Shown here: piece after piece, positions 18,173-36,191 of the stretch
Position numbering within the stretch: the first letter of the stretch is position 1
How the letters are laid out: the number at the start of each line of letters is the position of its first letter
IMG/VR virus record: IMGVR_UViG_3300017917_002560
Span: 74,096 to 138,095 of that record
Source: a virus
Lineage: Duplodnaviria > Heunggongvirae > Uroviricota > Caudoviricetes
Length of the DNA: 64,000 nt
Strand: one strand, 5' to 3'
Notes under the pieces: generated by a model
The model's input: only the letters and a program-made list of their open reading frames with translations
Told to the model about the DNA's origin: nothing
Database searches by the model: none
Translations under genes and position numbers: made by a program

Positions 18173-19380
18173 CAATACCACATGACAAGTTTTGCGTACT
18201 GCCTTGGATCAGCCTGGAAGCCAGCCCCATTGGTACTGTGCGTCCATGTTGCTTAGCCGACGATGAAATTGTAGACGATCATGGGGAGAAGTTTAGTTTA
18301 ATGACGGCTAACTTTTCACAAGTACAAAACAGCCAGCACATGCAGAAATTACGACAAGAATTTTTAGATGGCAAAAAGCCACAGACTTGCCGCAAGTGCT
18401 GGAACGAAGAACGCAGTGGCCGTACCAGCAAGCGCATGCATACGCTGAATAGGCTCAAGCACATTGTGGCAGATCAAACGTGGACAGCGGATGCCAAGCC
18501 CTTGATGTTCTTGGATCTTAAGTTAGGCAACATTTGTAATTTAAAATGTCGCATTTGCGGGTCGTGGAGTTCAAGCCAGTTTGCGACAGAAGAACTCAAT
18601 GATATGCCCATTGAAGCTGATAAGAAAACAACTTTTCCTTATCAAATGCTACGTGCCGGTGCATGGCCCAAAGAGAATCAACAATTCTGGGATCAAATTG
18701 ATCAGCATTTGAGCGACATTCGCTATATTGAATTCACTGGTGGTGAGCCTTTTATGATCAGTCAACACTTTGATATGTTGCAAGGTATCGTTGATCGTGG
18801 AATTGCACACAACGTAGAAATTCATTACAACACCAATGGCACAATGTTTCCAGCCCGCGGACCGGATATATGGCAACACTTTAAGACTGTGGAAATTGCA
18901 CTTAGTATTGACGACTTGGGTTCTAGATTTGAATATCAACGTAGCAATGCAGTATGGACAGAAGTGGTTGATAACTTGCGTCTATTCCAAGAATTGCGCA
19001 GCCGCATGTCCAACATTCAGTTGCAATGCTGTAGCACTGTAAACATATTCAATGTTCGTTACATTGACGAGCTTGCACGTTGGGTGGCACAACAAAATTT
19101 TGACTTTGTGTATTGGAATATGATGCACGATGCATGGTACTTCTCTATTGCTACGTTGCCTAACTCTGCCAAGACATTGCTTACACAGCACTTAGAATCT
19201 GCAGAAATACCACAACAGTATCAAGAAGAGTTTCAACGTATTGTTGATTTTATGAATCGTGGTGCAAGTACCGATGGATTTATGATGCGAATGAAAATAG
19301 CAGACTTAGATCGTAAGCGCAGTCAAAGCCTTGCTGACATCGAACCTGAGTTTGCTGAAATCATAGGATACACAAAGTAA
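18169..19380 (+). CDS. Radical SAM protein, paralogue 4 (CNLKCRIC)
   Basis: CxxxCxxC; N-terminal CCLADDE...CRKCWNEE module. Confidence 0.65.
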   Translation: MTIPHDKFCVLPWISLEASPIGTVRPCCLADDEIVDDHGEKFSLMTANFSQVQNSQHMQKLRQEFLDGKKPQTCRKCWNEERSGRTSKRMHTLNRLKHIVADQTWTADAKPLMFLDLKLGNICNLKCRICGSWSSSQFATEELNDMPIEADKKTTFPYQMLRAGAWPKENQQFWDQIDQHLSDIRYIEFTGGEPFMISQHFDMLQGIVDRGIAHNVEIHYNTNGTMFPARGPDIWQHFKTVEIALSIDDLGSRFEYQRSNAVWTEVVDNLRLFQELRSRMSNIQLQCCSTVNIFNVRYIDELARWVAQQNFDFVYWNMMHDAWYFSIATLPNSAKTLLTQHLESAEIPQQYQEEFQRIVDFMNRGASTDGFMMRMKIADLDRKRSQSLADIEPEFAEIIGYTK

Positions 19381-20387
19381 TGAGCCGGTTGGTTTTTATG
19401 TATTACCCTGGACACGAGCCCGAGCATCTAAGACGATTCTTGCCCAAAGGTTTCAAAATTGAAGTGTTTGATCCTATACAACAGTATCCAGCTGACACAG
19501 TGTTTTATTACGACATGTACGGTCCGTACGAAGATCACATTTTAATTCATTTGGATCAAGGATACAAGGTAGTGTACGATGCCAAAAACGAACACTATAT
19601 ACACTTTCGACGCCACTACATTTTTTACAGTTTCCTACAACATCCAGGTCAAGGATGTATTATTATTTCTGGTGACCGGCCTAACAACGTTCCCGGTGTT
19701 GACATTATTGCAACTCCATACTGGTACTGGATACTAGATCAAAAAAGTCTAATAGATAATGGTGTTGACCAACAAGTACGAACTTGGGACACCAACAAAA
19801 AGTTTTTTATGAGTCTAGGATTACACCGCGTAGAGCGCGACTACCTGTTTGATAATCTTGGTAATTTGTTAAATGACAGTTTGTACAGCTACCGTCATCG
19901 AGGAATGTTTCTCCCTGATGATGCGTCAATGGATGTAAATTGGCAACGGTATGTAAACCCTACATGGATGAACACTACTGCATTTACATTGGCTGTAGAA
20001 ACTTGTGTAATGGATGATGTCAAGTATGGATTCAGCCTGACGCTTGACGATAATCATTTTTTATGTGAAAAAACATACAAGCCCTTGGCAGCACAACATC
20101 CGTTGTTATTGGTGTCAACTCAAGGCAATTTAGCATACATGCGAAGTCAAGGGTTTGAGTCATTCCCTGAGTTGTTTGACGAAAGCTACGATAACATATC
20201 AGATTGGCAAAAGCGTATTGACCGTATCATTGAAATAGTTAGAGACTTTGATGTTGGTTTGGTAAACCAGCCCATTGTGCAAGAAAAAATAAAACACAAT
20301 CGAGATCATTTTTTTAACATTGATCTTGTAAATCAACTGGCACAAGACACTATTCAGCAACCTTTGTTTGAGTTCATCAATGGATAA
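19380..20387 (+). CDS. GT10-like glycosyltransferase-fold protein, paralogue 3
   Basis: HFLCEKTYKPLAAQHPLLLVSTQGNLAYMRSQGFESFPELFDESYD. Confidence 0.55.
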   Translation: MSRLVFMYYPGHEPEHLRRFLPKGFKIEVFDPIQQYPADTVFYYDMYGPYEDHILIHLDQGYKVVYDAKNEHYIHFRRHYIFYSFLQHPGQGCIIISGDRPNNVPGVDIIATPYWYWILDQKSLIDNGVDQQVRTWDTNKKFFMSLGLHRVERDYLFDNLGNLLNDSLYSYRHRGMFLPDDASMDVNWQRYVNPTWMNTTAFTLAVETCVMDDVKYGFSLTLDDNHFLCEKTYKPLAAQHPLLLVSTQGNLAYMRSQGFESFPELFDESYDNISDWQKRIDRIIEIVRDFDVGLVNQPIVQEKIKHNRDHFFNIDLVNQLAQDTIQQPLFEFING

Positions 20388-21687
20388 ACAAAAACCAGAC
20401 ACAATGTGCCTTGCCCCGTGGACGCACACATACCTATCGCCGCAGACCGAGCGACGATTATGCTGTGCGTCAAGAGAACCTGCACAAAACTTTCAGCAAT
20501 ACATTGATACTAAATCTGGTACTGGGCAATACATTCCCATTACACTAGAACAACACTGGAACAGCGATCACATGCGCAGTGTTCGTCGACGCATGATGGC
20601 CGGTGAAACACTGCCAGAATGTGATGTATGCAACAACAAATTGCTTAACACAGATGTGTATCGCGATTACTTTACACATTTGTTCCGTCACAAGTTACCA
20701 GAGATATTTGCATCTACTGCCGAAGATGGCAGTACAACAATGCAACCAGTGAGTTGGGATTATCGCTTCAGCAATTTGTGTAACTTCAAATGTCGCATGT
20801 GTGGCGATATGTTAAGTAGTAGTTGGGAAAGTGAACAACGCCAGCATAACATGATTAACTGGGCAGACTCAAAAAATAATTGGATGCTGCCAGCAGTGCG
20901 TAATCAAATATCGCAGTTTCAAGATCAACAAATTGAAGCAGAGTTTGCCAAAGCTGTAGAAGAACATCGTGTAGAGGAAATTTACTGGGTAGGCGGAGAG
21001 CCACTCATGTATGAACAGCACTGGCGCTACATGCAGAGGATCGTAGAACTAGGAGATGGACCACGTGTATATGCAAGATACAATACCAACCTTAGCAGAA
21101 TTGATTATCGGGGGTGTAACCTTTACAGCGATATTTTGGCTAATATACGAGATTGGCAAATTTGCGCAAGCCTTGACGGTACTGGAGCAGTTGGTGAGTA
21201 CATTAGAACAGGCCTTGACTACCAAACATTCTGCAGAAACTTTGAAGCTGGATTGCAACACCAACGCAATCGACGACAAATGCGACTAGACTTTACACTG
21301 ACATTGCCAGGCTTGTTTGAAGTAGAAGCCATGCAACAACTGGCCAATCGGTATGGCGTAGAAATGTTGGCCAAAGTAGTGTTTGGGTTCAGCCCAGACA
21401 TTGTAATGAGCCCATTGGCATTGCCAAGGTCAATCCTGGAAAGAAAAGTTCGTGAGCTATTGCCAATAACTACTGGTGCGATGCATGATGTGTTGCAACA
21501 ATTGTTGGCTCGTCCTACATTTGAAGAACAATGGCCTGACACTTACAGCAAAAGTATTGCACGTGGAAAGCAACGTATATTAAAGCTAGAAAGTATCAGA
21601 CAACAATCTATTACGTTTGAAGAAATTTGTCAACAGGATAAAGAAATTTATGAGTGGTGGAAAAATATTAGACCAGCTAACGATTAA
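20368..21687 (+). CDS. Radical SAM protein, paralogue 5 (CNFKCRMC)
   Basis: CxxxCxxC; N-terminal CCASREP...CDVCNN module. Confidence 0.65.
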   Translation: MSSSMDKQKPDTMCLAPWTHTYLSPQTERRLCCASREPAQNFQQYIDTKSGTGQYIPITLEQHWNSDHMRSVRRRMMAGETLPECDVCNNKLLNTDVYRDYFTHLFRHKLPEIFASTAEDGSTTMQPVSWDYRFSNLCNFKCRMCGDMLSSSWESEQRQHNMINWADSKNNWMLPAVRNQISQFQDQQIEAEFAKAVEEHRVEEIYWVGGEPLMYEQHWRYMQRIVELGDGPRVYARYNTNLSRIDYRGCNLYSDILANIRDWQICASLDGTGAVGEYIRTGLDYQTFCRNFEAGLQHQRNRRQMRLDFTLTLPGLFEVEAMQQLANRYGVEMLAKVVFGFSPDIVMSPLALPRSILERKVRELLPITTGAMHDVLQQLLARPTFEEQWPDTYSKSIARGKQRILKLESIRQQSITFEEICQQDKEIYEWWKNIRPAND

Positions 21688-22768
21688 GCTAGGTGGGGTC
21701 AACAGTGAATTAACTGTGTATGTTGATGTATGGGATCACTCGCTAGGACGCAAGTGGCTCGGTGCACTGAATCAACTGTTGGATCAACAGTATCATCTTG
21801 AAAAAAATTATTGCTTCTTTGGCTTTCCTGACGGCCCTAGAAATGGTAGATTGATTGTTGAACAAATTAACAAGAGTATTGTAGCCATCAACGCCGCAGA
21901 CTTGGGGTATCAAATCAATGATTACTTTACATTGGAAAACAGTTTGGTGCCCGGGGAGTTAGATCAACCAGTGTCGTTAGATCAGCAACGCCCGCCAGCA
22001 TTGCCCGGCGAAGTTGACCATGCCCACTTTAATCAGTTGCACAGATACTTTGAAGATCTGCAAGGGGTTAGCGGTGCAATATCTGAATATTACAACCGTG
22101 CCGATAGTGCTACACGTTGGCACATACGCCAGCTGAACTTGCTGTGCCATGAATTCGAGTCCTGGGCTTTAAGTAACAGAAAGAAGCATACAGCACCTAT
22201 GTGGATGCGTCCTAGTCAGCTTATGTGTTGGCTCAATGCCCCAAGGTTTGATCTAGATGCCGGAGATTTTGAAATGTTTGGCATTGAAACAATGAATCGT
22301 CCTTTGGGCGGTGTTTACGTTGGAGTTAACAAAGCTATCGGAAAACATCATTGGGAAGTATTTGTTGACGAAGCACATTACAACCCCAACATGATTGTTG
22401 ATAATTTGACTACAACCACAATGCGTGGACAATTAGAAGCGTCGGGCGACTTTGATATAGAGTGGGCCAACAATCCTGGCGATTATGAGTGGCAGAAAAA
22501 ACACTTAGCCGACTTTAGACAGTGGCTAATCAACAACAAGTTTGACCCCGATGACAAAAGCCTGACTATCGGGCATCCGCAAGTGGGCCAAGTTGATTTA
22601 ATGCGCAGTTTTGGCACAACAAACTACCAAGAAATTTGGAGTCAGCTTGAACAGCATCTCAATGTACTCAGTATAAAAACCAGTAGCAGTTACGCAGAGT
22701 ATAATTACAATTGGAGCGATGACAATTTCATTGATCTCCAAGTAGAAAGAATTACCAAAGGAAATTGA
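21617..22768 (+). CDS. Hypothetical protein (383 aa)
   Basis: ORF in same operon; start uncertain (21617 or 21650). Confidence 0.45.
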   Translation: MKKFVNRIKKFMSGGKILDQLTIKLGGVNSELTVYVDVWDHSLGRKWLGALNQLLDQQYHLEKNYCFFGFPDGPRNGRLIVEQINKSIVAINAADLGYQINDYFTLENSLVPGELDQPVSLDQQRPPALPGEVDHAHFNQLHRYFEDLQGVSGAISEYYNRADSATRWHIRQLNLLCHEFESWALSNRKKHTAPMWMRPSQLMCWLNAPRFDLDAGDFEMFGIETMNRPLGGVYVGVNKAIGKHHWEVFVDEAHYNPNMIVDNLTTTTMRGQLEASGDFDIEWANNPGDYEWQKKHLADFRQWLINNKFDPDDKSLTIGHPQVGQVDLMRSFGTTNYQEIWSQLEQHLNVLSIKTSSSYAEYNYNWSDDNFIDLQVERITKGN

Positions 22769-22867
22769 TATGAAATGGATTCGCAATTTAATTGAGCGTA
22801 TTCGGTTAGAGATACGTTATCGTAAAAAGTTAAAAGAGCTACGCAAAAGAGATCCGTTCATTTACAA

Positions 22868-24364
22868 ATGAGCAACATACTGGGAATATCTGCTGGGTTC
22901 CACGATGCCTCGGTGGCATTGGTTGATCGTCACGGCGAGATACTGTTTGCCGGGCATAGCGAACGTTACAGCAAAAAGAAAAATGATGCTGGGCTAGACC
23001 CACATCTATTGCTGGACGCCTGGGACTACGGGTCAATCAATCACATTGCATACTATGAGCGTCCGTGGGCCAAACAACTGCGTCGATTGCGCAGTGGTGA
23101 AGGCATACAATGGGATCAACTCACAGTAACACAGATATTAAACAAACAGCTAGGCCCAGGCTCATGGCCAACTATTAGTACATATAATCATCACCTTAGT
23201 CATGCGGCAGCTGGGTTTCAAACATCACCGTATGATCGAGCCACAGTTGTAGTAATAGATGCCATAGGAGAGTTTGATACTATATCAATATGGGGTGCAG
23301 AATATGATCGAAAAGGTCGTGCAGTTTATAAGAGACTGTGGAGACAAACTTACCCACATTCAATTGGGCTGTTTTATAGTGCAGTCACTGGCCGCGTTGG
23401 CCTTAAGCCACTAGACGAAGAATACATACTCATGGGCATGGCTGCCTATGGTGATCGTGGGTTTGGTACGCTGATGAAACAAGATCTGTTGTCTGACACA
23501 TGGGAAATGAAGTTCAAAGAAAACTTACACATAGGACTAGCACAAAAATATCTGTCCTATGTTGGTGACATGGACATTGCTGCCGGCGCACAAGACTTGG
23601 CAGAAGATCTCATAATGAACGTAATGATTCGTGCCAAGGGGTTTGGCTGGAGCAACAATCTTGTGTACATGGGCGGTGTTGCATTGAATTGCAGTGCTAA
23701 CCGTAAGTTGGGAAGTTGTTTTGATAATATCTGGATTATGCCTAATCCTGGCGATGCTGGCTCTAGCCTTGGTGCCGCCGCGCTGGCATACGGTCATAGG
23801 CTTAATTGGCGTGATGCTTTTCTGGGCCACGATATTGCAGGCCCTTACCCTGTTAATGCCATTTTGGACGAGCTTGTGTCTCGTCGTATCGTTGGTGTCG
23901 CTAGCGGCCGCGCTGAGTTTGGTCCGCGAGCGTTAGGCAACCGCAGTTTGTTGGCCGACCCTCGTGGACCTGAAATAAAGGATCAAGTTAATGAAATCAA
24001 ACGTAGACAAAAATTTCGACCATTTGCGCCAGTCATTCTGGAAGAGCATGTTCATGATTATTTTGACATGCCTCCTGGCTGGAGTGACAGTAGGTATATG
24101 CAAACAATCGCTACTTGCCGGCATCCTGAGCTATTTCCTGCTATCGTTCATTTTGATGGGACTAGTCGTGTTCAAACAGTACCAAAAGCCAGACCCGGAG
24201 AGCAACAATCCGGAATCCGAGAGCTTTTGGAGAAATGGTTTGTTTTGACTGGTTGTCCAATGTTGCTCAATACCAGCTTGAACATACGCGGCGAGCCCAT
24301 GGTAAACGATCGTGCAGATGCAGATCGCTTTGAACAATTATACGGAGTGAAAGTTTGTAGTTAA
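22868..24364 (+). CDS. NodU/CmcH-family carbamoyltransferase
   Basis: N-terminus MSNILGISAGFHDASVALVDRHGEILFAGHSERYSKKKND is the canonical carbamoyltransferase start; C-terminal YqeV-like domain length consistent. Confidence 0.8.
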   Translation: MSNILGISAGFHDASVALVDRHGEILFAGHSERYSKKKNDAGLDPHLLLDAWDYGSINHIAYYERPWAKQLRRLRSGEGIQWDQLTVTQILNKQLGPGSWPTISTYNHHLSHAAAGFQTSPYDRATVVVIDAIGEFDTISIWGAEYDRKGRAVYKRLWRQTYPHSIGLFYSAVTGRVGLKPLDEEYILMGMAAYGDRGFGTLMKQDLLSDTWEMKFKENLHIGLAQKYLSYVGDMDIAAGAQDLAEDLIMNVMIRAKGFGWSNNLVYMGGVALNCSANRKLGSCFDNIWIMPNPGDAGSSLGAAALAYGHRLNWRDAFLGHDIAGPYPVNAILDELVSRRIVGVASGRAEFGPRALGNRSLLADPRGPEIKDQVNEIKRRQKFRPFAPVILEEHVHDYFDMPPGWSDSRYMQTIATCRHPELFPAIVHFDGTSRVQTVPKARPGEQQSGIRELLEKWFVLTGCPMLLNTSLNIRGEPMVNDRADADRFEQLYGVKVCS

Positions 24365-24367
24365 GAA

Positions 24368-24397
24368 AATGCCCCTTTAAGGGGCATTTTTTATAGG
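24368..24397. terminator. Bidirectional intrinsic terminator (aaaatgcccctt/aaggggcatttt)
   Basis: 12-bp perfect hairpin followed by TTTTTAT on + strand and preceded by T-run equivalent on - strand; sits between convergent genes. Confidence 0.7.
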
Positions 24398-25416
24398 TAT
24401 GTTTCTAATCCGCCACGTCGTACAAGGTCCTGTGTACAGCAACTAATGCCACCGTCCCAAAAGTAACTGTGACGCAGTTCAGAGATAATAGGATTGATAC
24501 GATGCTTGCGACAGTAGTCAAATACTTCTTTGTTGTATGCTGAGAAAATTACGTTCTCTTCGTCTAACACAAGACAGTTGACATCAAACACAGTTTCAGC
24601 AACAAACCCAGTCCACTTATTCAGGTAAGTGTTAACGAAGTCTGTAAACTCAGGAGTGGGGGTTTGTCCTTGTACATACCAAGCCCCGGGACTTTGTTCG
24701 TACTTGAACTTGCCTACTTCCATGGCTGCCCAGATACTTGAGTCCCACACTTTGCAAACGTCCCAGCCAGGGAAGTCTCGACCCAAGTCTAAGTTTACGT
24801 CATGCTTGCTTGATAGTATAACACCGGGTTTGAGAATAGCAAACACAGCATCACCGTGTCCGTCTGTTACGGCTTCGTGTATGCGATATCGACTATCCAA
24901 ACAGTTATCTACAATCCACTGAGTTTGATCTGGACGTAAAAAGTCTGAGTTATCAAAAAATACATCAGTGCCCACACGCACAATACAGCTAGCCGACGCA
25001 CCATTTAAGATGCAATCTGGATCCCATGTGCTTTTGTGAGGGTTAACCACAGACTCTTTAAACTTCTCACACACAGAGTCAAGCTCGGGCATGTTAAGCA
25101 CACGCAATAGTTTATCGCCCAAGGTGATTTGCCAGTCGCGTGGTGTCAGTGGCGGCAGCGGAGCACCTCCTCCTTCGGTTTGAAACCAAACAAATTGATC
25201 TTTGTTGGGTAAGTCAGGGCGATGCACTCGTGCGCCGTACTGCTCAATTGTTCGTTGCAAGTTATCAAGATCTTCTTCGGTCTCGGCTAAAATTTGCTGT
25301 AGCTGATTACGTACTTGAGGATTGTCAATAAAGTCAAAGTAATCAGGACTGTATGCACGGCCTACAATAACTTCTTCCAGGGGTTGCCAGCTGGTGTATG
25401 AATTAACTTTAGTCAT
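24391..25416 (-). CDS. Amidinotransferase-superfamily protein (C-terminal GGISCCTQDLVRRG active-site Cys motif)
   Basis: C-terminus matches glycine/inosamine amidinotransferase catalytic Cys segment (GGxxHCxTxDxxRxG). Confidence 0.55.
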   Translation of the reverse strand: MTKVNSYTSWQPLEEVIVGRAYSPDYFDFIDNPQVRNQLQQILAETEEDLDNLQRTIEQYGARVHRPDLPNKDQFVWFQTEGGGAPLPPLTPRDWQITLGDKLLRVLNMPELDSVCEKFKESVVNPHKSTWDPDCILNGASASCIVRVGTDVFFDNSDFLRPDQTQWIVDNCLDSRYRIHEAVTDGHGDAVFAILKPGVILSSKHDVNLDLGRDFPGWDVCKVWDSSIWAAMEVGKFKYEQSPGAWYVQGQTPTPEFTDFVNTYLNKWTGFVAETVFDVNCLVLDEENVIFSAYNKEVFDYCRKHRINPIISELRHSYFWDGGISCCTQDLVRRGGLETYL

Positions 25417-26596
25417 GAATTTTCCAATGTAGGGTATTTAATCTTGCCAGTTTTGAGCCAGCAAATAGTTTTTGATTGTGGTCAAGATCCTTGATAGATT
25501 TTTTGTACAGTTTGTCTAGGCCTTGCTCCTGGGCTTTCTTTATGGCATCCAAAAGTTTAATCCAACGTTGTGTATGGTTTGGTTCAAGATCATAGCTGTT
25601 GTCTAACACATCGTCAAACACACAATACCCTAGATCACGTAGTTGTTGCAAACTACCTGCACCGCCAGCAACAAAGAACAACTGTCCGTGCTTGATGGGT
25701 TTGAATGTTTTTTCTGTAATAAACGCACCGCCGCTTTGATCAACGTCAAATTGACTTTCTAACACAATGTTGCAGTAACTATCCAAGTGATATTTGAATA
25801 CAGTGATACCGTGATCGTTGCGCTGATCCTGAGTCAAGTCATCACTGTAGTAAGGCGCACCTTGTGCAAACTTTTCCAAGTCCCAACGCAGTCTTGAAAT
25901 AGCATCAATTTCAATGGGGTTGTCTTTTGTAAATTCTTGATCCTTGGGGGCTTCGCAGTAGCTCCAGTAACTGTTCTCTAGGATACTATTACGTTGCATG
26001 TCGGCCATGACAGTGGCACGCCACCACTTGTGCAGCCTTGACAACACTGTGAAGTTTTTGCTACGTGATTTGGTATGCATAGGCAGTGGCACTTCTCGGT
26101 TTCTAGCATAGTACCATAGTTCAAAATCTACAAAGCTTACAAAGTTTTCTAGATGGTCTGCTTGACTATTGGAACTAACAAACACATAGCAGTTCTTTGG
26201 CAAATTGTGTTGCGTTACTAAAGAGTCAAGTCTGTTTTTAATGTTGACAGGGTTGTCTCCTTCGTGATAGTAAAACAACACACGAAGTTTTTGTTCTTGC
26301 AATTTGGCAATCACAGCACTGCTCATAAGAGAGAAGTAATCTATCTCAAAATCAAAAAATCCTAGCCCAATAGGGTAAAACGTATGAGCTGGTAGCTCAT
26401 CGTTGATATCAAAGATGTTGATCTTGCCACCGTGTGCCTGGCAGTACTCTTCTAGTCGCAACGGAGTAGTGTATGGCCAATGCTGACCAAACTCTCTCCA
26501 GCTAGTGGTATAAGGGCGACCTTGATGTCTAGCAAACGCTGGATATATTTTTCCCTTGATAGTGCGATCAGCTACAAAATTAAATTCTAAACTCAT
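25409..26596 (-). CDS. GT10-like glycosyltransferase-fold protein, paralogue 4
   Basis: AFITEKTFKPIKHGQLFFVAGGAGSLQQLRDLGYCVFDDVLDNSYD. Confidence 0.55.
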   Translation of the reverse strand: MSLEFNFVADRTIKGKIYPAFARHQGRPYTTSWREFGQHWPYTTPLRLEEYCQAHGGKINIFDINDELPAHTFYPIGLGFFDFEIDYFSLMSSAVIAKLQEQKLRVLFYYHEGDNPVNIKNRLDSLVTQHNLPKNCYVFVSSNSQADHLENFVSFVDFELWYYARNREVPLPMHTKSRSKNFTVLSRLHKWWRATVMADMQRNSILENSYWSYCEAPKDQEFTKDNPIEIDAISRLRWDLEKFAQGAPYYSDDLTQDQRNDHGITVFKYHLDSYCNIVLESQFDVDQSGGAFITEKTFKPIKHGQLFFVAGGAGSLQQLRDLGYCVFDDVLDNSYDLEPNHTQRWIKLLDAIKKAQEQGLDKLYKKSIKDLDHNQKLFAGSKLARLNTLHWKIHD

Positions 26597-27671
26597 TTAA
26601 CATTCCTAATAGTTCTTGCCATAGAACATCGGTAAAGCCGCCGTTGTAAAAATGGTTAAAGTTATGTTCAACAATTGGCAAGCATTGTTGATGTATATCC
26701 CAGCGTTGGCTAGGTGTTAGTTCGTCTAACTGCTTTAACAATTTTACTACTTTTTCAATGCGAAGTCTATCGTCAGTTTCTTCATCATAGCTTTCGTCAA
26801 ACACTGACGCAAACGTTTTGAATCCGTATTCACGCATGTATGCCAGACTGCCGGCTGGTGCCACAAGTACAAATGGCATTTCCAAAGCAATGGCTTTGAA
26901 TGTTTTTTCTGTAATGTGTTGCCTACGCCCAAAGTACACTGTTTCTGTGGGCACATATACCAAACTGTCAGAGGCCTCATCAAAGTTGGTAAGCCAACAT
27001 GATGCCATTTCCTGTGTTTCTTCTCCAGGGAACAATCGCGGCAAGTCTGCGGACTCAAACACTTGCTCTATGTCTGGATATATGCTATTATACTTAGATG
27101 CTACAACAGATATATCTACGTTCTCATATACACAGGTTCTTGGCGCACTGATCCAGTTATGCTCAAGACCCTGCTTGAACACGTTATACAAAAACAGCAC
27201 ACGGTGATCACGTTTGCCAGCAACAATTCGGTTGGGGCTAATGAAAGTGCGTGTGGGCTGTCGGTCTCTAGCACGTGGAATCAAAAAAGTTTTGTCGTAA
27301 CCACGGAACCAGTCCTGACAGGCCCAGCCATGAAAGAAATAGTAGTGTGGAGTCCAACCATATTTTTCGCACAACTTGTCAACAAACTCGCCACGTTCGC
27401 TTACAATAATGTGCCCAGTAGGTTTGCAAAAGATATCATCGTTGCGCCGTATTACATCTTTAAACAGTGGCTCGTGCAAGTCCAGGTGTACAGGTTCTTG
27501 ATCATGCAAATACACGTAGTCGTTTTCTATGATGTTGTCCTGGCCCAAGTTAAATAGATGTTCTGCATCAGTAAACCCAAATGGATCGCAAAAGAATACT
27601 CTAGTACCTGGACGATTTTTAGCAAACCAGGGCCAAAAAGTATTATTGTAAATTTCATCTATTCTAATCAT
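26580..27671 (-). CDS. GT10-like glycosyltransferase-fold protein, paralogue 5
   Basis: VYFGRRQHITEKTFKAIALEMPFVLVAPAGSLAYMREYGFKTFASVFDESYDEETD. Confidence 0.55.
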   Translation of the reverse strand: MIRIDEIYNNTFWPWFAKNRPGTRVFFCDPFGFTDAEHLFNLGQDNIIENDYVYLHDQEPVHLDLHEPLFKDVIRRNDDIFCKPTGHIIVSERGEFVDKLCEKYGWTPHYYFFHGWACQDWFRGYDKTFLIPRARDRQPTRTFISPNRIVAGKRDHRVLFLYNVFKQGLEHNWISAPRTCVYENVDISVVASKYNSIYPDIEQVFESADLPRLFPGEETQEMASCWLTNFDEASDSLVYVPTETVYFGRRQHITEKTFKAIALEMPFVLVAPAGSLAYMREYGFKTFASVFDESYDEETDDRLRIEKVVKLLKQLDELTPSQRWDIHQQCLPIVEHNFNHFYNGGFTDVLWQELLGMLNEFRI

Positions 27672-30600
27672 GTTTGACGTTTTTTATTCAGGACCTAAAC
27701 CTAATTTGTTCGCACACGAGCAACAGGCCTCGGATATTGACCATGCTCAGAAGTTAAGCCGTACTAGGTATTTTTGGTGGATCACATACTTAGCGGATTT
27801 GCAGGACTGGGATTTTCTTTGGGAACCGGCGCCGTGGCAAGCTGAGTACATGCATGTTTGGCCCAGTGAAGTTGAAGGATACGCCGCAGTAAAACTGATT
27901 CCGCGCGACACAGTTGACCCACAGCCACACTATCACAACATAGTTGTAAAGTCTTTGCCTAGGCTCAACAACTATCGTACCCTGGTGCCTTGTGACTTTG
28001 ATTACTCATGGTTACCTAGTCCGTTTGATCCCCCGTTCATTTATGTGTTTGGTAACCAACACTGGCCAGCAGAACAACAGCCCACAGTAGAATATCATGC
28101 ACCGGGCGCAACGGAACGCAAATATCTAGAGTGGCCACAAGCAACTCTATTGCCCGACCGTACACATTGGAAAGTGTTGGAGCAGATCAACGAAGCACAC
28201 TGGGACTGGTCATGGAGGCCTGATCCGGGCGATCCACCTTACATCTATGTGTTTGGTAACCAGTGGCACCCAGCAGAATTCAAGGCCAGTGTAGAGTATC
28301 ATGTGCCCGGGGCAACAGAGCGTAAGTACATGGATCCACGCACTGAGAGATTGCCGTGTTATGATAATCGCTGGCGTGTTCACCAGTCTGTGGAAGAATT
28401 TGATTATTCGTGGGAGCCCGACCCATTTGACCCGCCTTACATTTACGTATTTGGTAACCAATGGTATTCTGCCGAAGTGGAAGCTACAATAGAGTATCAT
28501 GTTCCCGGTGCAACAGAGCGCAAGTATGTTCACGATATTATAGCTCGTGTACAGTCTAACACAACCAACTACTATCAACACTGTGCAGTGGAATCTTTTG
28601 ACTATTCTTGGCATCCAGATCCTGGCGAACCACCGTACATTTACGTATTTGGTAATCAGTGGTACCCAGCAGAGATCATGCCCACTGTGGAATATCGTGT
28701 ACCTGGCGCAACAGAAAAGAAGTACATGGATGCACCCCGAGCAACATTGCCACAGCGTCATGACAATCACTGGCACACTATAGAGGATTGCAACTGGGAT
28801 TACAGTTGGGTACCTGATCCGGGCGATCCACCTTACATCTATGTGTTTGGCAATCAGTGGTGGCCCGCAGAAAAATGGCCTACTGTAACATATACAGTGC
28901 CCGGCGCTACTGAACGCAAGTACATGAACAGTCCACAAGCTACATTACTGCCCAACAACGATCACTGGGTTAGCTTGATTGACCGTGGGTTTGAATTTGA
29001 TTATTCTTGGCAGCCTGATCCCGGAGATCCACCTTATCGCTATGTGTTTGGTAACCAGTGGCATTCGGCTGAAGTTATGCCTACATTGTCATGGACTCAC
29101 CCCAACGCAGACAGCAACACGCCCACAAAATACATAGACTGGCCACGTGCTACTCTATTGCCTGACGCTACAAACTGGACACTGCCTGCTGGAGTAACAC
29201 CTGACAGTGTGGACTTCAGTTGGGTACCTGACCCTGGTGAGCCGCCATACATCTATCAGTTTGCCACACAGCACCAAAAAACAGGCGGTCCGGTGTACAC
29301 AGTGCCCGGTGCTACAGAAACAAAGTACCTTGAGTCAGTGGAAATCAAGATTGAAGTAGAAACAGTGCCCATTGTGGAAATTGATCACTTGGATGGCAAT
29401 GCTGGCAACATAGCCAATGTTGTTAAACGTGTGAGATACTTTGACAACTACCGTGACACGCTGATTCGCATTGCCAAGAGCCTTGTGGGTCAACATGAGT
29501 TTGTTTGGATCTGTTCTAGCGTATGTGATTACACTGACTTTGATTTTACATGGCACCCAGAAAAATGGCAACAAACTATGTTGCATGTATTTGCCAGCAA
29601 TGAACAAAAGTTTGGTGATACATTTTACATGCATGTTCCTTCGTTTGCAGAACGTGCAGAAAAGAAAGCTCTACTGGAGTGGTACGCAGTAAACTATGTA
29701 CCACGCAAACGGGTACCGCGCAGACTCATGCCAGTGTTTGAACACACGCATGATACACATGTGGGCACAGTTAAGAGTACAGACTGGACTGGCCCACTAG
29801 CACTGTTTACTACCAATGGCGTGCCTGCAACTATTCCAGCTGTGCCACTGTGGCGTTCAGAAGTTAAAACCATTGTGCCATTAAGCTCGGGTGCCGGGGC
29901 AGTGGTTGTACCCAAGGTTGCTCGTGGAGATATCAAAACACAGTTATACGACTATCCTTACATTGACAAAACACAACAAAGCACACATCCACCGCAGTTA
30001 CAAGATGTAATATTCATCAGTTACGATGAACCCGAAGCTGAACAAAATTGGGAAATACTAAAGCAACGTTGCCCAAGAGCACAACGAGTGCATGGTGTAG
30101 CTGGCATGGAACTGGCATTGGAAGCAGCCGCCGACGCTAGTACCACGCCGTGGTATTTTGCTGTGTTTGCAAAAACAAGATTGCATGATAGTTTTGATTT
30201 TTCGTTTGTACCTGATTACATGCAACAGCCCAAGCACTACATTTTCAACTGTCGCAATGCCAGCAATGGATTAGAATACGGACACATGGGCATGGTATTG
30301 TATAACTGTGCTGGAATACGTAGTACCAACCGTGCTGGCAATTTTGGTCTTGATTATACCTTGAGCTTCCCACACGAAAGTATTCCGTTGTTGAGTTGCC
30401 ATGGTGAATTTGCTACCACACCATATCATGCATGGCGCACAGCATTTAGAGAGACTGCCAAGTTAGCGTACTTTGAAAGTGTAGACCCCACAGTTGATAA
30501 TCAGTACCGACTCAACGTTTGGTTAAATCGTGCAGACGGCAACAACTCTGAGTGGGTGTTACGTGGTGCGCAAGATGGCTATGACTTTTACACAGCCACA

Positions 30601-30687
30601 CAGGGCGAGCTTGACAAGCTCAAGCAGAGTTTTAGATGGGAATGGTTACGTTCTTACTTTGAAGAACGCTACGGCGATTTAAAGTAA
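27670..30687 (+). CDS. Repeat protein (1005 aa): eight ~80-aa tandem repeats (W.PDPGDPPYIYVFGNQW.PAE...YHVPGATERKYM) plus C-terminal SYDEP domain
   Basis: Repeats read directly from translation (residues ~100-560); C-terminal 300 aa paralogous to 10163..11119. Confidence 0.6.
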   Translation: MFDVFYSGPKPNLFAHEQQASDIDHAQKLSRTRYFWWITYLADLQDWDFLWEPAPWQAEYMHVWPSEVEGYAAVKLIPRDTVDPQPHYHNIVVKSLPRLNNYRTLVPCDFDYSWLPSPFDPPFIYVFGNQHWPAEQQPTVEYHAPGATERKYLEWPQATLLPDRTHWKVLEQINEAHWDWSWRPDPGDPPYIYVFGNQWHPAEFKASVEYHVPGATERKYMDPRTERLPCYDNRWRVHQSVEEFDYSWEPDPFDPPYIYVFGNQWYSAEVEATIEYHVPGATERKYVHDIIARVQSNTTNYYQHCAVESFDYSWHPDPGEPPYIYVFGNQWYPAEIMPTVEYRVPGATEKKYMDAPRATLPQRHDNHWHTIEDCNWDYSWVPDPGDPPYIYVFGNQWWPAEKWPTVTYTVPGATERKYMNSPQATLLPNNDHWVSLIDRGFEFDYSWQPDPGDPPYRYVFGNQWHSAEVMPTLSWTHPNADSNTPTKYIDWPRATLLPDATNWTLPAGVTPDSVDFSWVPDPGEPPYIYQFATQHQKTGGPVYTVPGATETKYLESVEIKIEVETVPIVEIDHLDGNAGNIANVVKRVRYFDNYRDTLIRIAKSLVGQHEFVWICSSVCDYTDFDFTWHPEKWQQTMLHVFASNEQKFGDTFYMHVPSFAERAEKKALLEWYAVNYVPRKRVPRRLMPVFEHTHDTHVGTVKSTDWTGPLALFTTNGVPATIPAVPLWRSEVKTIVPLSSGAGAVVVPKVARGDIKTQLYDYPYIDKTQQSTHPPQLQDVIFISYDEPEAEQNWEILKQRCPRAQRVHGVAGMELALEAAADASTTPWYFAVFAKTRLHDSFDFSFVPDYMQQPKHYIFNCRNASNGLEYGHMGMVLYNCAGIRSTNRAGNFGLDYTLSFPHESIPLLSCHGEFATTPYHAWRTAFRETAKLAYFESVDPTVDNQYRLNVWLNRADGNNSEWVLRGAQDGYDFYTATQGELDKLKQSFRWEWLRSYFEERYGDLK

Positions 30688-31560
30688 TTCTTTAACACGG
30701 TCAATTACACGGGCAACTGCCTTGGCTGACTCAAGTCCGGTTGCCGGTTGTTGTCTGGTTCGAACACAGTTGACCCAGTGTTGTAGTTCAGTTTCCAATG
30801 GCGTCAGTGAGTGAGTATATGTAATCACACGTGGGTTGGTGTCTGCTACAGCACGTCGATCTTGAATCTTGTTCCAGGTCACAGTCACAGTGTTTGCATC
30901 CTGGTCCCAGATAATTTGCCCGTCGGTGCCCATGATAATTGTCTGTCTAGTGCGTACAGGCCAGTGCCAGCTTACATCAATATCAAATGTTACTTCAGTA
31001 TTGCAAGCACCTGAAAACCAAACACGATCTGGTTGTGCATTGTTACTGTAATTCCAACCCTGTGCTTGTTGGATCAAAGGTTGATCGCCAACAATGGCCA
31101 GCACAATGCTGATGTCATGTGTAGCCAAGCTCAGCAAAGGATCTGTCTTGGTTTGATAAATCCCCCAGTTGAGTCTACGACTAGATATGTGTGTTAATTT
31201 ACCAATAGCACCGCTGTCAAGTATGGCTTTGATTTCGGCCAGTTGTGGGTGATGCACAAACAAGTGTCCCACCATAAGCAACTGCCCGGGCATGACGTAG
31301 CTACCAATGCCCAATACTTGATTGAATGTTTCAGCCATGGGCTTTTCAACATATACATCATGCCCACGACGCAACAGTTCACAAGTTTGCTCGTGATGTT
31401 GCCACAGTGGGGTTGCTAGCATCACGGGATCCATAGTATCGATATCTGCAATACTTTGTCCGTTGCGGATGTCAATGACTTGAGCAGTGACATCAAACTT
31501 TTTCAAACTGTCCAACAGTTTGCTACCCCAATAACCGGCACCAACTAGCCACATATTCAT
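30679..31560 (-). CDS. Gfo/Idh/MocA-family NAD(P)-dependent oxidoreductase
   Basis: N-terminal Rossmann MNMWLVGAGYWGSKLL; length and EKP motif (VYVEKPMA) typical. Confidence 0.6.
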   Translation of the reverse strand: MNMWLVGAGYWGSKLLDSLKKFDVTAQVIDIRNGQSIADIDTMDPVMLATPLWQHHEQTCELLRRGHDVYVEKPMAETFNQVLGIGSYVMPGQLLMVGHLFVHHPQLAEIKAILDSGAIGKLTHISSRRLNWGIYQTKTDPLLSLATHDISIVLAIVGDQPLIQQAQGWNYSNNAQPDRVWFSGACNTEVTFDIDVSWHWPVRTRQTIIMGTDGQIIWDQDANTVTVTWNKIQDRRAVADTNPRVITYTHSLTPLETELQHWVNCVRTRQQPATGLESAKAVARVIDRVKELL

Positions 31561-32648
31561 GCAAAGAACTCCTGTACAGATTTGATCACGTGTTCAACTT
31601 GCGCTGGTGTCATGCTGTACCAACAAGGTAAGCTTAGAATTTCATTGACAGTGCGCTCAGCAATGGGGCAAGGTGTGTACCAAGAACGATACGCAGGCTG
31701 AGTATGTGTGGTTGTTGCATAATGCACATTGGTACCAATACCGCAACTTTCTAAATGCTGTTTAAGAGCATCACGTTTGGGAGTCTGTATCACATACACA
31801 TAGTATCCGTGTCCAACACCAGGCTCGTGTTTTATGGTCTTGACCACACCACTCAAGGCTTGATCATACTGTTGACAAATTTGTGTCTTGCGTTCAATCC
31901 ATTCAGTTAGTCGCGGCAATTTGGCCAATACAATATTGGCCTGCATGTTGTCAATTCTGGCATTGTAACCTAGTTCATTAAATTCATATCTTGATGTACG
32001 TCCGTGATCTCTAAACACACGCACACGATCCATGTTGACTTGACTACCGGTAACACACCCGGCGTCACCCATGGCACCTAGATTTTTTACAGGGTTGAAA
32101 CTAAAGCAAGTATAATCAGCTTGGTGTCCTATACGTTGTCCTTGCCATGTTGTGCCTAAACTATGTGCCGCATCTTCAATCATTATTAGGTGATAGCGAT
32201 CACATATTTCTCTCAATCTTGATAAATCAGGGCATTGGCCATAAATGTCCACAAACAATACTGCTCGTGTCTTTATAGTGATCTTGGCCACAAGCTTTTC
32301 CAAATCAATTAAATGTGTGTCAGGGTTAATGTCCACAAACACTGGTGTGGCACCTACTATGGCAATGGCTTCAGTTGTGGCAACAAACGTATGCGGAGTA
32401 GTCAATACTTCGTCACCGTGTCCAATGCCTGCGGCTTTGAGGGAACAGATCAGTGCTGTGGTACCTGAACCAGTGCTGGCGCAGTCTTCAGCGCCAACAT
32501 ACTGAGCCATTTCTTTTTCAAATCGTGTGACGTCTAAGCCAGTGATAAAACTGCTGGATGCAATAGTGTCAGCAATAGCTTGATCAATCTCAGTTCGGCA
32601 ATCTACGTATTGTTGGTAGAGATTGGTAAAAGGAATATCAATTTTCAT
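31557..32648 (-). CDS. DegT/DnrJ/EryC1/StrS-family PLP-dependent sugar aminotransferase
   Basis: DAAHSLG...SFNPVKNLGAMGDAG lysine/PLP motif. Confidence 0.75.
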   Translation of the reverse strand: MKIDIPFTNLYQQYVDCRTEIDQAIADTIASSSFITGLDVTRFEKEMAQYVGAEDCASTGSGTTALICSLKAAGIGHGDEVLTTPHTFVATTEAIAIVGATPVFVDINPDTHLIDLEKLVAKITIKTRAVLFVDIYGQCPDLSRLREICDRYHLIMIEDAAHSLGTTWQGQRIGHQADYTCFSFNPVKNLGAMGDAGCVTGSQVNMDRVRVFRDHGRTSRYEFNELGYNARIDNMQANIVLAKLPRLTEWIERKTQICQQYDQALSGVVKTIKHEPGVGHGYYVYVIQTPKRDALKQHLESCGIGTNVHYATTTHTQPAYRSWYTPCPIAERTVNEILSLPCWYSMTPAQVEHVIKSVQEFFA

Positions 32649-33612
32649 TTATTTTATTTTGCCAATAGGTACTGTTACTGAGCCACTTGAAATATTCGCG
32701 GAATCCTTCTTCTACGTCAACTTGAGGATTGTATCCAAAGTCTCGTTGTGCGGCTTCAATATTAAGAGCTCCGCGGCTGGGGAAGTCTGCATCTTTGCCA
32801 CGTATTTCTACAGAGCCTTTGCCAACAATGTTAACGATCATATTGGCAGCCTCAAGCAAGCTCACTGAGTGGCTTTTGGTAATGTTGTATGTGTTATTTA
32901 CAGCAGTGTCACTGAGTGCAGCCGCAACAATGCCATTGGCTGCATCGTCAACATAGGTAAAGTCCAAGGTTTCGCTGGCACCGTTGACTTTTAGCGTACC
33001 CCCACGCATGGCACTGAGCATAAATTTAGCAACCACTCGGTCTTCCACGTCCAAGGGCCCGTAAACAGCACTGGGCCTAATAATAGTATAATCAAAACAC
33101 TCACGACGAGCATAGTCTTTAACAATATCTTCTCCTGATAATTTCATAATTCCATATTGCCCCTGTGGGCGACATACTGCATCTTCTCGCACTTGGTCAT
33201 CAAAGTCACCGTACACCATTGAGCTAGAAATATAAACAAACCGTTTGACTCTGGCGTTTTTGGCACTCTCGCAAAGATTAATCAAGCCTTCCATCATAAC
33301 CCTAGCACCATGGCCAGGGTTAGCATTGACAACTTTTTGTCTAGGAAAGCTGGCCATGTGTATAATGACGTCAGGTTCTTGACTGCGAATCAACCAATCA
33401 ATATCTTCTTGTTCAGTAATGTCAATTCTGTAAATTCTATCTGTAGCAATCTTCTTACGACGCTCATGCATCAAGTAATCTAACTCGTCTTGTGGAATAA
33501 TACCGTAGGTGGTTTGCGAGTCAGTGATAACAACTTCGTGGCCCAAGGTTTCTAATCTATCAACAACATTGTGTCCAATGAGTCCTAGGCCGCCTGTAAC
33601 TAAAATTTTCAT
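32638..33612 (-). CDS. NAD-dependent sugar epimerase/dehydratase (SDR family)
   Basis: VTGGLGLIGHNV Rossmann motif, YGIMK catalytic YxxxK. Confidence 0.75.
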   Translation of the reverse strand: MKILVTGGLGLIGHNVVDRLETLGHEVVITDSQTTYGIIPQDELDYLMHERRKKIATDRIYRIDITEQEDIDWLIRSQEPDVIIHMASFPRQKVVNANPGHGARVMMEGLINLCESAKNARVKRFVYISSSMVYGDFDDQVREDAVCRPQGQYGIMKLSGEDIVKDYARRECFDYTIIRPSAVYGPLDVEDRVVAKFMLSAMRGGTLKVNGASETLDFTYVDDAANGIVAAALSDTAVNNTYNITKSHSVSLLEAANMIVNIVGKGSVEIRGKDADFPSRGALNIEAAQRDFGYNPQVDVEEGFREYFKWLSNSTYWQNKINEN

Positions 33613-34199: not shown

Positions 34200-34218
34200 A
34201 TTGATTAATCTTTTGCAA
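34190..34218 (-). promoter_or_regulatory. Possible sigma70-like promoter (TTGCAA-17-TATACT)
   Basis: Read on minus strand; weaker match than other early promoters; overlaps thyX stop. Confidence 0.3.
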
Positions 34219-36110: not shown

Positions 36111-36191
36111 ACTGATATTTAACGGCAAAGATCGTGTAGCACAAATAAAAACACCTCGTTTAGAGGTGTTTTGGCAAAATTGACCTGAAGT

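What the first reader, a model, noticed from the sequence alone, without database searches (positions are those of the whole stretch)
27670..30687. 1005-aa protein with eight tandem ~80-residue repeats and a C-terminal domain duplicated in a second gene
Residues ~100-560 contain eight copies of W.PDPGDPPYIYVFGNQW(H/Y/W)PAE...(V/I)EYHVPGATERKYM. The last ~300 residues (ISYDEPEAEQNW...VHGVAG...AAADAS...) are clearly homologous to 10163..11119 (LSYDEPQKEEFW...VDGVKG...AAAEAS). A repeat array of this kind fused to a shared, possibly catalytic domain inside a glycosylation island is unusual. It could be a processive or scaffolding component of the pathway, or a beta-propeller-like binding module.
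Basis: seen in the sequence. Interest (0 to 1): 0.6.

Follow-up and report, generated by a model that had tools for sequence, protein, structure and literature searches.

The report
Phage glycosyltransferase with expandable repeat arm
A jumbo-phage gene encodes a sugar-transferase-like enzyme in which the usual metal-binding motif is replaced by a lysine, and which carries an arm of 66-residue repeats that ranges from 0 to more than 20 copies in related phages; the whole family is abundant in metagenomes and has no description in any domain library searched.

Summary

The architecture is head - 7 units - middle domain - catalytic-type C domain. All four module types share a DxxWxP + beta-hairpin element.

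An exhaustive search finds 1,306 clusters with architectures H(0-2)-U(0-22)-M(0-11)-C. Only C is constant. In C, the DxD position is x-[A/G]-K with a near-invariant Lys. The stand-alone paralogue keeps DGD.

In 80 viral loci the gene occupies one syntenic slot. A DegT aminotransferase lies next to it in 75 and an epimerase/dehydratase in 74. Unit number runs from 0 to 14 (length = 544 + 65.5*U, r = 0.999).

Best reading: a probably metal-independent glycosyltransferase of a phage glycan island, with a dispensable, extensible accessory arm. A beta-propeller is excluded. Activity, acceptor and the arm's role remain inferred.

The parts
27670..30687 (+). Complete ORF, 1005 aa, architecture H-U7-M-C. 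A lone plus-strand gene between minus-strand genes.
   Evidence: the N-terminus MFDxFYxGxKPxLFAHE is conserved in orthologues, which supports the ATG at 27670. There is no signal peptide and no TM segment (maximum KD hydropathy 1.21).
27670..27990 (+). Head (H), residues 1-107: a small alpha/beta module carrying a DxxWxP motif (DWDFLWEP, residues 46-53).
27991..28194 (+). Repeat unit U1 (residues 108-175)
28195..28392 (+). Repeat unit U2 (residues 176-241)
28393..28590 (+). Repeat unit U3 (residues 242-307)
   Evidence: The AF2 model shows four strands per unit: YIYVFG, VEYxV, a long E(R/K)KYM...A.L strand, and a short fourth strand.
28591..28788 (+). Repeat unit U4 (residues 308-373)
28789..28989 (+). 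Repeat unit U5 (residues 374-440)
28990..29202 (+). Repeat unit U6 (residues 441-511), with a 3-residue insertion before the GATE-like motif
29203..29388 (+). Repeat unit U7 (residues 512-573), the variant 'type 7' unit (YIYQFATQHQKTGGP). It is the most conserved unit and the type that is tandemly amplified in long arrays.
   Evidence: 62% invariant columns. Type-7 copies are 70-83% identical within P0021.
29389..29994 (+). Middle domain (M), residues 574-775: an alpha/beta module with motifs RYFDNYRDT, CSSxCDY, DFDFTWHPE and KFGDTFYMHVP.
   Evidence: It is the most conserved large region (44% invariant columns) and is homologous to the head. Its copy number ranges from 0 to 11 across the superfamily. 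It belongs to the confident tail model (pLDDT 88).
29995..30684 (+). C domain, residues 776-1005: a GT-A-fold core (about 776-915) plus a helical bundle (about 916-1005). It is the only module constant across the superfamily and is homologous to ORF 10163..11119.
30166..30174 (+). F833-A834-K835, at the position where the paralogue has D-G-D (the DxD motif)
   Evidence: Column-for-column alignment. The position reads x-[A/G]-K in essentially all C domains of the 150 representatives, with K changed to R in two. V832, F833 and K835 are invariant in the orthologues.
30277..30285 (+). Y870-G871-H872 (YGH; YGN in the paralogue), a candidate G-loop
   Evidence: Y870 and G871 are invariant and H872 is >=90% conserved. 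The assignment to the G-loop is an inference.
30433..30462 (+). W922-R-T-A-F-R-E928-x-x-K931 at the start of the long helix after the last core strand. It is conserved in both paralogue families and is the candidate xED-like catalytic helix.
   Evidence: (helix at fragment 344-364). The catalytic role is an inference.
10163..11119 (+). Stand-alone paralogue of the C domain (318 aa; the start is probably M12 at 10196). It keeps D75-G-D77 (nt 10385-10393). It is a core gene of this phage clade.
   Evidence: There are more than 8,000 hits, and the top 120 clusters are 84-89% identical and mostly 306-307 aa long. The RsoM2USA genes 350 and 348 also keep VDGD.
24391..27671 (-). Three upstream minus-strand genes (341, 395 and 363 aa). 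The last two belong to a five-member paralogous family in the island. The start codon of the 363-aa gene overlaps that of the repeat gene (CATG, 27669-27672).
   Evidence: They are present upstream in 62, 70 and 76 of 80 viral loci. No Pfam, NCBIfam or PDB match was found.
30679..33612 (-). Convergent downstream genes: GFO/IDH/MocA oxidoreductase (30679-31560), DegT/DnrJ/EryC1 aminotransferase (31557-32648) and NAD epimerase/dehydratase (32638-33612).
   Evidence: Pfam. DegT is adjacent in 75 of 80 loci, the epimerase/dehydratase in 74 and GFO in only 6. There is a 9-nt convergent overlap with the repeat gene.
12658..24364 (+). Upstream part of the island: five radical SAM paralogues with an N-terminal twitch/SPASM domain, interleaved with unknown-family paralogues, then a carbamoyltransferase (22868-24364).
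   Evidence: Pfam. NF033640 N_Twi_rSAM at 314 bits. Paralogy. The carbamoyltransferase lies upstream in 68 of 80 loci and rSAM genes in about 50 of 80.

Best explanation
The gene encodes a soluble, phage-made enzyme of the GT-A (nucleotide-sugar transferase) fold that belongs to a conserved virus-encoded glycan-building island. Its constant functional core is the C-terminal domain. That domain is a divergent sister of a stand-alone DGD-type GT-A enzyme encoded 17 kb away. In this copy the last Asp of the DxD metal site has been replaced by a near-invariant Lys (x-[A/G]-K). I infer that the Lys side chain takes over the charge-neutralising role of the divalent metal on the donor diphosphate, as happens in other GT-A lineages that lost DxD. 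The enzyme would then be active but metal-independent. In front of the core sit accessory modules: a head, 7 repeat units and a middle domain. All of them share with the core a 'DxxWxP + beta-hairpin' element, so they most likely arose by internal duplication of a piece of the enzyme. The 66-residue units form an open-ended, acidic, aromatic- and proline-rich all-beta array. The array is gained and lost one unit at a time and is dispensable, since orthologues with zero units occupy the same locus. Its most likely role is an adjustable spacer or multivalent binding arm for the polymeric acceptor, which could be a glycan chain, a virion surface or the host envelope. Shown: the fold, the modular anatomy, the Lys-for-Asp change, the copy-number range and the synteny. 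Inferred: transferase activity, metal independence, the acceptor and the role of the arm.
For: Family-level homology to the DGD-type paralogue, with DGD aligned to FAK.
x-[A/G]-K, YGH and WRTAFRE..K are conserved in essentially every C domain of 150 representatives at 50% clustering, which indicates a constrained site rather than decay.
Loss of DxD with retained activity has precedents in GT14 and prokaryotic GT6 (PMC7185993, PMC3961637).
Modularity. Architectures follow H(0-2)-U(0-22)-M(0-11)-C, and only C is constant.
The shared element is supported by HHalign (unit vs M 85%, vs C 65%, head vs M 96.5%), by shuffle z scores of 4-10, and by the same motif-then-hairpin pattern in the predicted secondary structures.
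The array is dispensable and tunable. In 80 IMG/VR loci, U runs from 0 to 14 at one syntenic locus, with length = 544 + 65.5*U and r = 0.999. Copy number is identical at >=98% tail identity and essentially randomised below 90%. A zero-unit orthologue sits in the same slot.
Pathway context. DegT is adjacent in 75 of 80 loci, the epimerase/dehydratase in 74 and the carbamoyltransferase in 68. In a distant relative the gene follows five rSAM genes on the same strand with overlapping stop and start codons.
The array has a net charge of -37, 17% F/W/Y and 12% Pro, and the protein has no TM segment or signal peptide.
Confidence: 0.55

Rival explanations
1. The protein is a non-catalytic GT-A-fold protein, that is a pseudoenzyme, used as a structural or binding protein. 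One example would be a virion fibre or decoration protein, or a lectin-like receptor binder, whose reach is set by the number of units. The vaccinia H3 envelope protein is a precedent: it has a glycosyltransferase fold but acts as a binding protein.
Against: The gene is embedded among sugar-nucleotide enzymes about 20 kb from the structural genes. It is co-transcribed with rSAM genes in a distant relative. The putative active-site motifs (K835, YGH, WRTAFRE..K) are near-invariant across 1,306-cluster diversity, unlike receptor-binding tips. Tail-only (M-C) and C-only forms are common. The RsoM2USA homologues were not among the MS-identified virion bands, although only the 10 most abundant bands were analysed.
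Confidence: 0.18
2. The repeat units are substrates rather than binding modules. Either the protein glycosylates itself in a glycogenin-like manner, with each unit acting as a primer or acceptor site, or the units are iterated cores modified by the neighbouring radical SAM/SPASM enzymes in a RiPP-like manner.
Against: The units are predicted as folded beta modules with pLDDT of about 90, not as short linear cores. Zero-unit orthologues occupy the same locus. The rSAM genes occur without any U units in L007 and without any H, U or M module in RsoM2USA. In the window, the rSAM genes are on the same strand as the repeat gene, but three minus-strand genes lie between them.
Confidence: 0.1
3. The C domain is a nucleotidyltransferase of the MobA/IspD-like sugar-phosphate or cofactor type, or another phospho-transferase of the same fold, rather than a glycosyltransferase.
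Against: The N-terminal strand motif is acidic ([FY][IL]S[NY][GD]E), which resembles the GT2 'PxYNE' region rather than the Gly-rich GxGxR loop of nucleotidyltransferases (own knowledge; sequences). The sister paralogue carries a canonical DGD at the DxD position. Longer alignments (175-200 residues) are obtained with glycosyltransferases such as SunS, BcsA and HAS.
Confidence: 0.1
4. The repeats form a closed beta-propeller-like binding module.
For: The units are all-beta with about four strands each.
Confidence: 0.02

Closest known systems
GT-A fold glycosyltransferases of the GT2-like type (SpsA, E. coli K4 chondroitin polymerase K4CP, SunS)
   Different: No detectable sequence similarity (6-12% identity in structural alignments; no Pfam or PDB sequence hit). 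DxD is replaced by x-[A/G]-K. The N-terminal half is minimal, with three strands. The family-specific motifs are YGH and WRTAFRE..K. The N-terminal arrays of self-related modules have no counterpart.
Metal-independent GT-A families that lost DxD (GT14 C2GnT-L; prokaryotic GT6 such as Bacteroides ovatus BoGT6a)
   Same: [quoted passage not shown] For bacterial GT6, protein-substrate contacts replace the metal-substrate contacts (PMC3961637 abstract). This is the mechanistic precedent for an active Lys-type site.
   Different: There is no homology beyond the fold. Here the replacement is a Lys exactly at the position of the last Asp of DxD. Metal independence is inferred, not measured.
Virus-encoded glycan machineries (PBCV-1 A064R; Mimivirus R655/R699; jumbo-phage and pelagimyophage sugar clusters described in PMC7824862 and PMC7029224)
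   Different: None of these has the repeat arm or the Lys-type site. The published surveys that were read do not mention this family.
Ralstonia phage RsoM2USA genes 348 and 350 (annotated hypothetical)
   Same: They are the only homologues in cultured phages: 32-38% identity to the C domain and the paralogue. They lie in a shared module of two GT8-like genes, a SYDEP-type GT-A gene and a radical SAM gene.
   Different: Both keep VDGD and have no H, U or M modules. Gene 348 is a 233-aa stand-alone domain.
Copy-number-variable repeat arrays of phage surface proteins (for example Ig-like domain arrays)
   Same: Tandem small beta modules whose number varies between related phages.
   Different: The fold is different and unmatched. 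The array is fused to an enzyme-like core encoded in a biosynthetic operon, not in a structural module.

Membership tests
GT-A fold glycosyltransferases (nucleotide-diphospho-sugar transferase superfamily) | Single alpha/beta/alpha Rossmann-like GT-A fold | tested here: met
GT-A fold glycosyltransferases (nucleotide-diphospho-sugar transferase superfamily) | DxD motif at the end of the strand preceding the acceptor half (metal and donor binding) | tested here: not met
   The position is F833-A834-K835 here and x-[A/G]-K across the family. It is met in the 318-aa paralogue (D75-G-D77) and in RsoM2USA genes 348 and 350.
GT-A fold glycosyltransferases (nucleotide-diphospho-sugar transferase superfamily) | Conserved Gly of the G-loop | tested here: inconclusive
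   An invariant Y870-G871 (YGH, or YGN in the paralogue) lies in the hairpin after the DxD-equivalent strand. No superposition was available to confirm that it is equivalent to the G-loop defined in PMC7185993.
GT-A fold glycosyltransferases (nucleotide-diphospho-sugar transferase superfamily) | xED catalytic base on helix alphaF (inverting enzymes) | tested here: inconclusive
   An invariant F926-R927-E928 lies at the start of the long helix after the last core strand and is conserved in both paralogue families. Positional equivalence was not verified.
GT-A fold glycosyltransferases (nucleotide-diphospho-sugar transferase superfamily) | C-terminal metal-binding His (C-His) | not tested
   No coordinates or structural alignment were available. 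The feature would be moot if the enzyme is metal-independent.
GT-A fold glycosyltransferases (nucleotide-diphospho-sugar transferase superfamily) | Sequence membership of a curated GT family model | tested here: not met
   No Pfam, NCBIfam or PHROG hit for the protein, its paralogue or nine diverse relatives. No PDB hit with two profiles.
GT-A fold glycosyltransferases (nucleotide-diphospho-sugar transferase superfamily) | Transfer of a sugar from an activated donor to an acceptor | not testable with these tools
   This requires biochemistry.
Metal-independent GT-A enzymes (GT14, prokaryotic GT6) | Loss of DxD, with protein groups replacing the metal in donor binding | tested here: inconclusive
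   DxD is lost and a near-invariant Lys sits at the last-Asp position. Whether it contacts the diphosphate is an inference. There is no homology to GT14 or GT6.
Beta-propeller | Closed ring with a fixed number of four-stranded blades | tested here: not met
   Unit number is 0-14 at one locus and up to 22 in the family, and it changes by single units. There are no propeller hits.
Two-domain GT-A polymerases (K4CP, CHSY, LARGE type) | Two complete GT-A catalytic domains, each with its own donor site | tested here: not met
Multi-core RiPP precursor for radical SAM/SPASM maturases | Short repeated core peptides, obligately co-occurring with the maturase | tested here: not met
   The units are 66-aa modules predicted as folded (pLDDT about 90). 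The rSAM genes occur without units (L007 and RsoM2USA), and the locus occurs with zero units.
Known anti-phage defence proteins (PADLOC) | Match to a defence-system model | tested here: not met
   No hit.

The most novel reading that the evidence does not exclude
The accessory modules are not passive. Each DxxWxP unit could be an iterated functional site, either a self-glycosylation or primer site (glycogenin-like) or a site that holds one repeat of a growing polymer. Unit number would then encode the number or the length of the glycan chains the phage makes. That would be a genetically tunable, protein-templated 'ruler' for a viral glycan, built by duplicating a fragment of the enzyme's own acceptor half.
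Probability: 0.12. Interest if true: 0.85.

Novelty: new variant of a known kind. Interest (0 to 1): 0.6.

Why it matters
Glycan islands in large phages are known, but their enzymology is almost entirely unassigned. This work defines a very large family: 1,306 clusters at 50% identity, more than 2,900 at 90%, and 414 loci in IMG/VR. No domain library covers it. The family now has a fold and a modular grammar (H-Un-Mn-C). It also has a testable active-site hypothesis: a Lys replacing the DxD metal site, with a DGD-type sister enzyme in the same genome as a natural control. Finally, it offers a clean natural series, 0 to 22 units at one syntenic locus, for asking what an extensible arm does for a glycosyltransferase. 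If the arm sets reach, avidity or product length, it would be a new way of tuning a viral glycan. If the enzyme is metal-independent, it would be a further independent loss of DxD in the GT-A fold.

Tried and rejected
- Megablast of the gene against 50,697 phage records found nothing. tblastn found only RsoM2USA.
- Pfam, PHROGs, NCBIfam and PADLOC gave no hit for the protein or its paralogue. Pfam on nine diverse relatives was also empty.
- PDB sequence searches with the tail profile and with a focused C-domain profile gave only chance-level hits.
- Tandem Repeats Finder at the DNA level found nothing in the array.
- Promoter and terminator scans around the gene were at chance level.
- The first scan of reference genomes found nothing. 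The alignment-based scan found two MAG contigs. One (L003) looks like a chimeric join at a contig end and is not evidence for a bacterial homologue.
- The upstream paralogous family (w26580 and relatives) recalled the GT10 'TEK' region from memory, but no Pfam, NCBIfam or PDB search supports this, so it is left unassigned.
- HHalign of the unit, head or middle domain against the DGD-type paralogue profile was not significant. The DxxWxP element is therefore specific to the Lys-type subfamily.
- The 'moraphage' paper (PMC12619734) was read as a possible description of this lineage, but nothing links it to this family.


Full report
**What is there.** The window comes from a jumbo myovirus. It carries 39 tRNA genes at 51.6-63.2 kb. 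It has virion and baseplate-like ORFs related to Atu_ph07, Phosso and PA5oct, and it shares a gene module with Ralstonia phage RsoM2USA.

The ORF 27670..30687 (+) encodes 1005 aa. Its start codon overlaps that of the divergent upstream gene within CATG at 27669-27672. Its last 9 nt overlap the convergent downstream gene. It is therefore a lone plus-strand gene wedged between minus-strand genes. The same arrangement is seen on an independent contig.

**Check of the observation.**
They lie at residues 108-573, and the period is 62-71 aa, not ~80.
- Mean pairwise identity between units is 51%. All 21 pairs score z = 16-41 against shuffles.
- No DNA-level tandem repeat is left.
- Three further weak matches to the first ~20 residues of the unit lie at residues 46-64, 623-662 and 841-861, with z = 4-10 against shuffles.
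- The C-terminal homology to ORF 10163..11119 holds: 30% identity and E = 4e-17 pairwise, and 99.9% probability with E = 1e-30 over 201 columns at family level.

**Fold.** No Pfam, PHROG, NCBIfam, PADLOC or PDB-sequence match exists for either protein.

I predicted two pieces with family alignments. Residues 575-1005 gave pLDDT 88.4 and pTM 0.80. Residues 1-575 gave pLDDT 83.4 and pTM 0.52.

**Anatomy.** The protein reads head (1-107), U1-U7 (108-573), middle domain (574-775) and C domain (776-1005).
- Head and middle domain are homologous (HHalign 96.5%, E = 1e-9).
- The first ~21 residues of the unit align to a segment of the middle domain (85%), of the C domain (65%) and of the head (42%).
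- In all four module types the predicted secondary structure shows the same pattern: a coil carrying DxxWxP, followed by a beta-hairpin.
- Across 1,696 unique units, D3, W6 and P8 are 93%, 99% and 99% conserved. They are followed by PPYiYvFG.Q, a conserved Tyr and GATE.KY.
- In the C domain the element lies directly after the strand that ends at the DxD position.

My inference is that the accessory modules arose by duplication of this piece of the enzyme.

**The Lys-for-Asp change.** The paralogue and both RsoM2USA homologues read (I/V)DGD at the DxD position. The 1005-aa protein reads V-F-A-K. In the C domains of the 150 best representatives the position is x-[A/G]-K (FAK, NGK, PAK, FGK), with K changed to R in two cases. 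YGH and WRTAFRE..K are likewise near-invariant.

This is a constrained site, not a decaying one. PMC7185993 lists DxD, the G-loop, xED on helix alphaF and C-His as the GT-A core. It also records that GT14 and prokaryotic GT6 lost DxD and became metal-independent (see also PMC3961637). I therefore propose an active, metal-independent enzyme in which K835 replaces the cation. This is an inference.

**Family and modular grammar.** The word-indexed search gave more than 2,941 clusters at 90% identity, none of them named. The exhaustive profile search gave 1,306 clusters at 50% identity with E <= 1e-3, of which 395 have E <= 1e-30.

My own HMMs for H, U, M and C resolve the architectures as H(0-2)-U(0-22)-M(0-11)-C. 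The forms include:
- C alone (about 280-320 aa)
- H-C
- M-C (about 440 aa)
- H-M-C (about 540 aa)
- Un-C without M
- M10-C
- a 2,248-aa H-U22-M3-C

Only C is constant.

Among close homologues, length = 515 + 68*N with r = 0.97 and N = 6-17. Long arrays grow mainly by tandem amplification of the 'type 7' unit, whose copies are 70-83% identical within one protein.

Among 7-unit orthologues the middle domain (44% invariant columns) and U7 (62%) are the most conserved parts. The C core (24%) and the head (11%) are less conserved. Unit cores are conserved and inter-unit linkers are variable.

**Locus.** IMG/VR holds 414 relatives. In the 80 loci fetched, every complete gene is H-Un-M-C apart from one with a second M. 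Three genes cut at a contig end lack part of the 5' region.
- n is spread almost evenly from 0 to 14, with length = 544 + 65.5*U and r = 0.999.
- The neighbourhood is fixed. DegT lies downstream on the opposite strand in 75 loci and the epimerase/dehydratase in 74. The upstream minus-strand genes are present in 62-76, the carbamoyltransferase in 68 and rSAM genes in about 50. The GFO/IDH/MocA gene is present in only 6.
- Copy number is identical between tails that are >=98% identical. It differs by 1-2 units at 90-96% identity and is essentially random below 90%.
- A zero-unit orthologue (P0270) occupies the same slot.
- An M10-C relative directly follows five rSAM genes on the same strand, with overlapping stop and start codons.

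The array is thus dispensable, open-ended and freely adjustable. This excludes a closed beta-propeller.

**What the arm might do.** The array has a net charge of -37 (pI 4.7), 17% F/W/Y and 12% Pro. The protein has no signal peptide or TM segment. This argues against DNA binding and against secretion. It is compatible with a carbohydrate-binding or spacer arm inside the infected cell.

Three targets of the island remain open: the virion surface, the host envelope polysaccharide (as proposed for jumbo-phage and pelagimyophage sugar clusters in PMC7824862 and PMC7029224) and DNA.

**Rivals.**
1. A non-catalytic GT-A-fold structural or binding protein.
2. Units that serve as substrates, through self-glycosylation or rSAM modification.
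3. A nucleotidyltransferase rather than a glycosyltransferase.
4. A beta-propeller, which is refuted.

The evidence for and against each is given in the rival entries. The strongest argument against (1) and (2) is the conserved catalytic-type core together with zero-unit orthologues, and the presence of rSAM genes in genomes that lack the modules.

**Novelty.** The island type is known and the fold is known. I found no description of the following in any library or paper searched: the family itself, its Lys-type site, the DxxWxP modules and the 0-22 unit arm. I rate this a new variant of a known kind, with interest 0.6.

Noticed in passing
window 51617-63223 (- strand): A dense array of 39 tRNA genes covering most amino acids, including three Met, two Asp, two Glu and several Leu and Arg isoacceptors. 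This is typical of very large phages.
   Followed up: no
window 11735-27671: Five radical SAM paralogues with an N-terminal twitch/SPASM domain (NF033640, 314 bits) alternate with five paralogues of an unassigned family (ORFs 11735, 14015, 19380, 25409 and 26580). The members of that family share a conserved C-terminal region of about 100 aa. The arrangement looks like a cassette-wise expansion of an rSAM plus partner pair.
   Followed up: partly
window 27669-27672 and 30679-30687: The start codons of the repeat gene and of the divergent upstream gene overlap within the palindrome CATG. The 3' end overlaps the convergent oxidoreductase gene by 9 nt. There is therefore no intergenic space for a promoter or ribosome-binding site on either side. 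The same 2-nt start overlap is seen in L001.
   Followed up: partly
L003 (JALQYQ010000010.1, Crocinitomicaceae MAG), locus 3221-6500: An ORF with a signal peptide and many Ig-like TxxPGG repeats switches abruptly, in the middle of a repeat, into two phage-type units in the last ~500 nt of the contig. The upstream genes are bacterial housekeeping genes (prfB, gcvH). This is most likely a chimeric assembly join. It might hint at a freshwater Bacteroidota host.
   Followed up: partly
L004 (JALRFB010000324.1, 613 bp): The 3' end of a carbamoyltransferase gene is followed directly by a repeat-unit ORF. This gene order differs from the one in the window.
   Followed up: no
L002 (RsoM2USA 208638-225324), genes 353-347: The cultured jumbo phage RsoM2USA carries the core module: two GT8-like genes, a small ORF, a DGD-type GT-A gene, a radical SAM gene and a second DGD-type GT-A gene. 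The module lies next to its tail genes, and every gene in it is annotated hypothetical.
   Followed up: partly
window 10163-10209 / 9802-10209: The paralogue's longest ORF starts at 10163, but nearly all homologues are 306-307 aa long. This implies that the real start is M12 at 10196. The listed ORF 9802..10209 overlaps this region.
   Followed up: no
window 34205-48375 (- strand): Downstream of the island lie ThyX, an SPFH/Band-7 protein, a DUF2201 metallopeptidase/VWA protein with a MoxR-type AAA ATPase, and an S-adenosylhomocysteine hydrolase. The DUF2201-AAA pair is also kept in L001 and L007.
   Followed up: no
window 8338-9880: Two adjacent paralogous ORFs (267 and 250 aa) are homologous to RsoM2USA genes 353 and 352. 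They carry an (L/E)-A-D-M-L motif reminiscent of GT8-type DxD sites. No library model matches them apart from an unknown-function PHROG (phrog_1903).
   Followed up: partly
P0245, P0286, P0308 (representatives): These are extreme architectures. P0245 is a 2,248-aa protein with 22 units and 3 middle modules. Other proteins expand the middle module instead of the unit, with 10-11 copies. Two different accessory modules have therefore undergone independent tandem expansion.
   Followed up: partly
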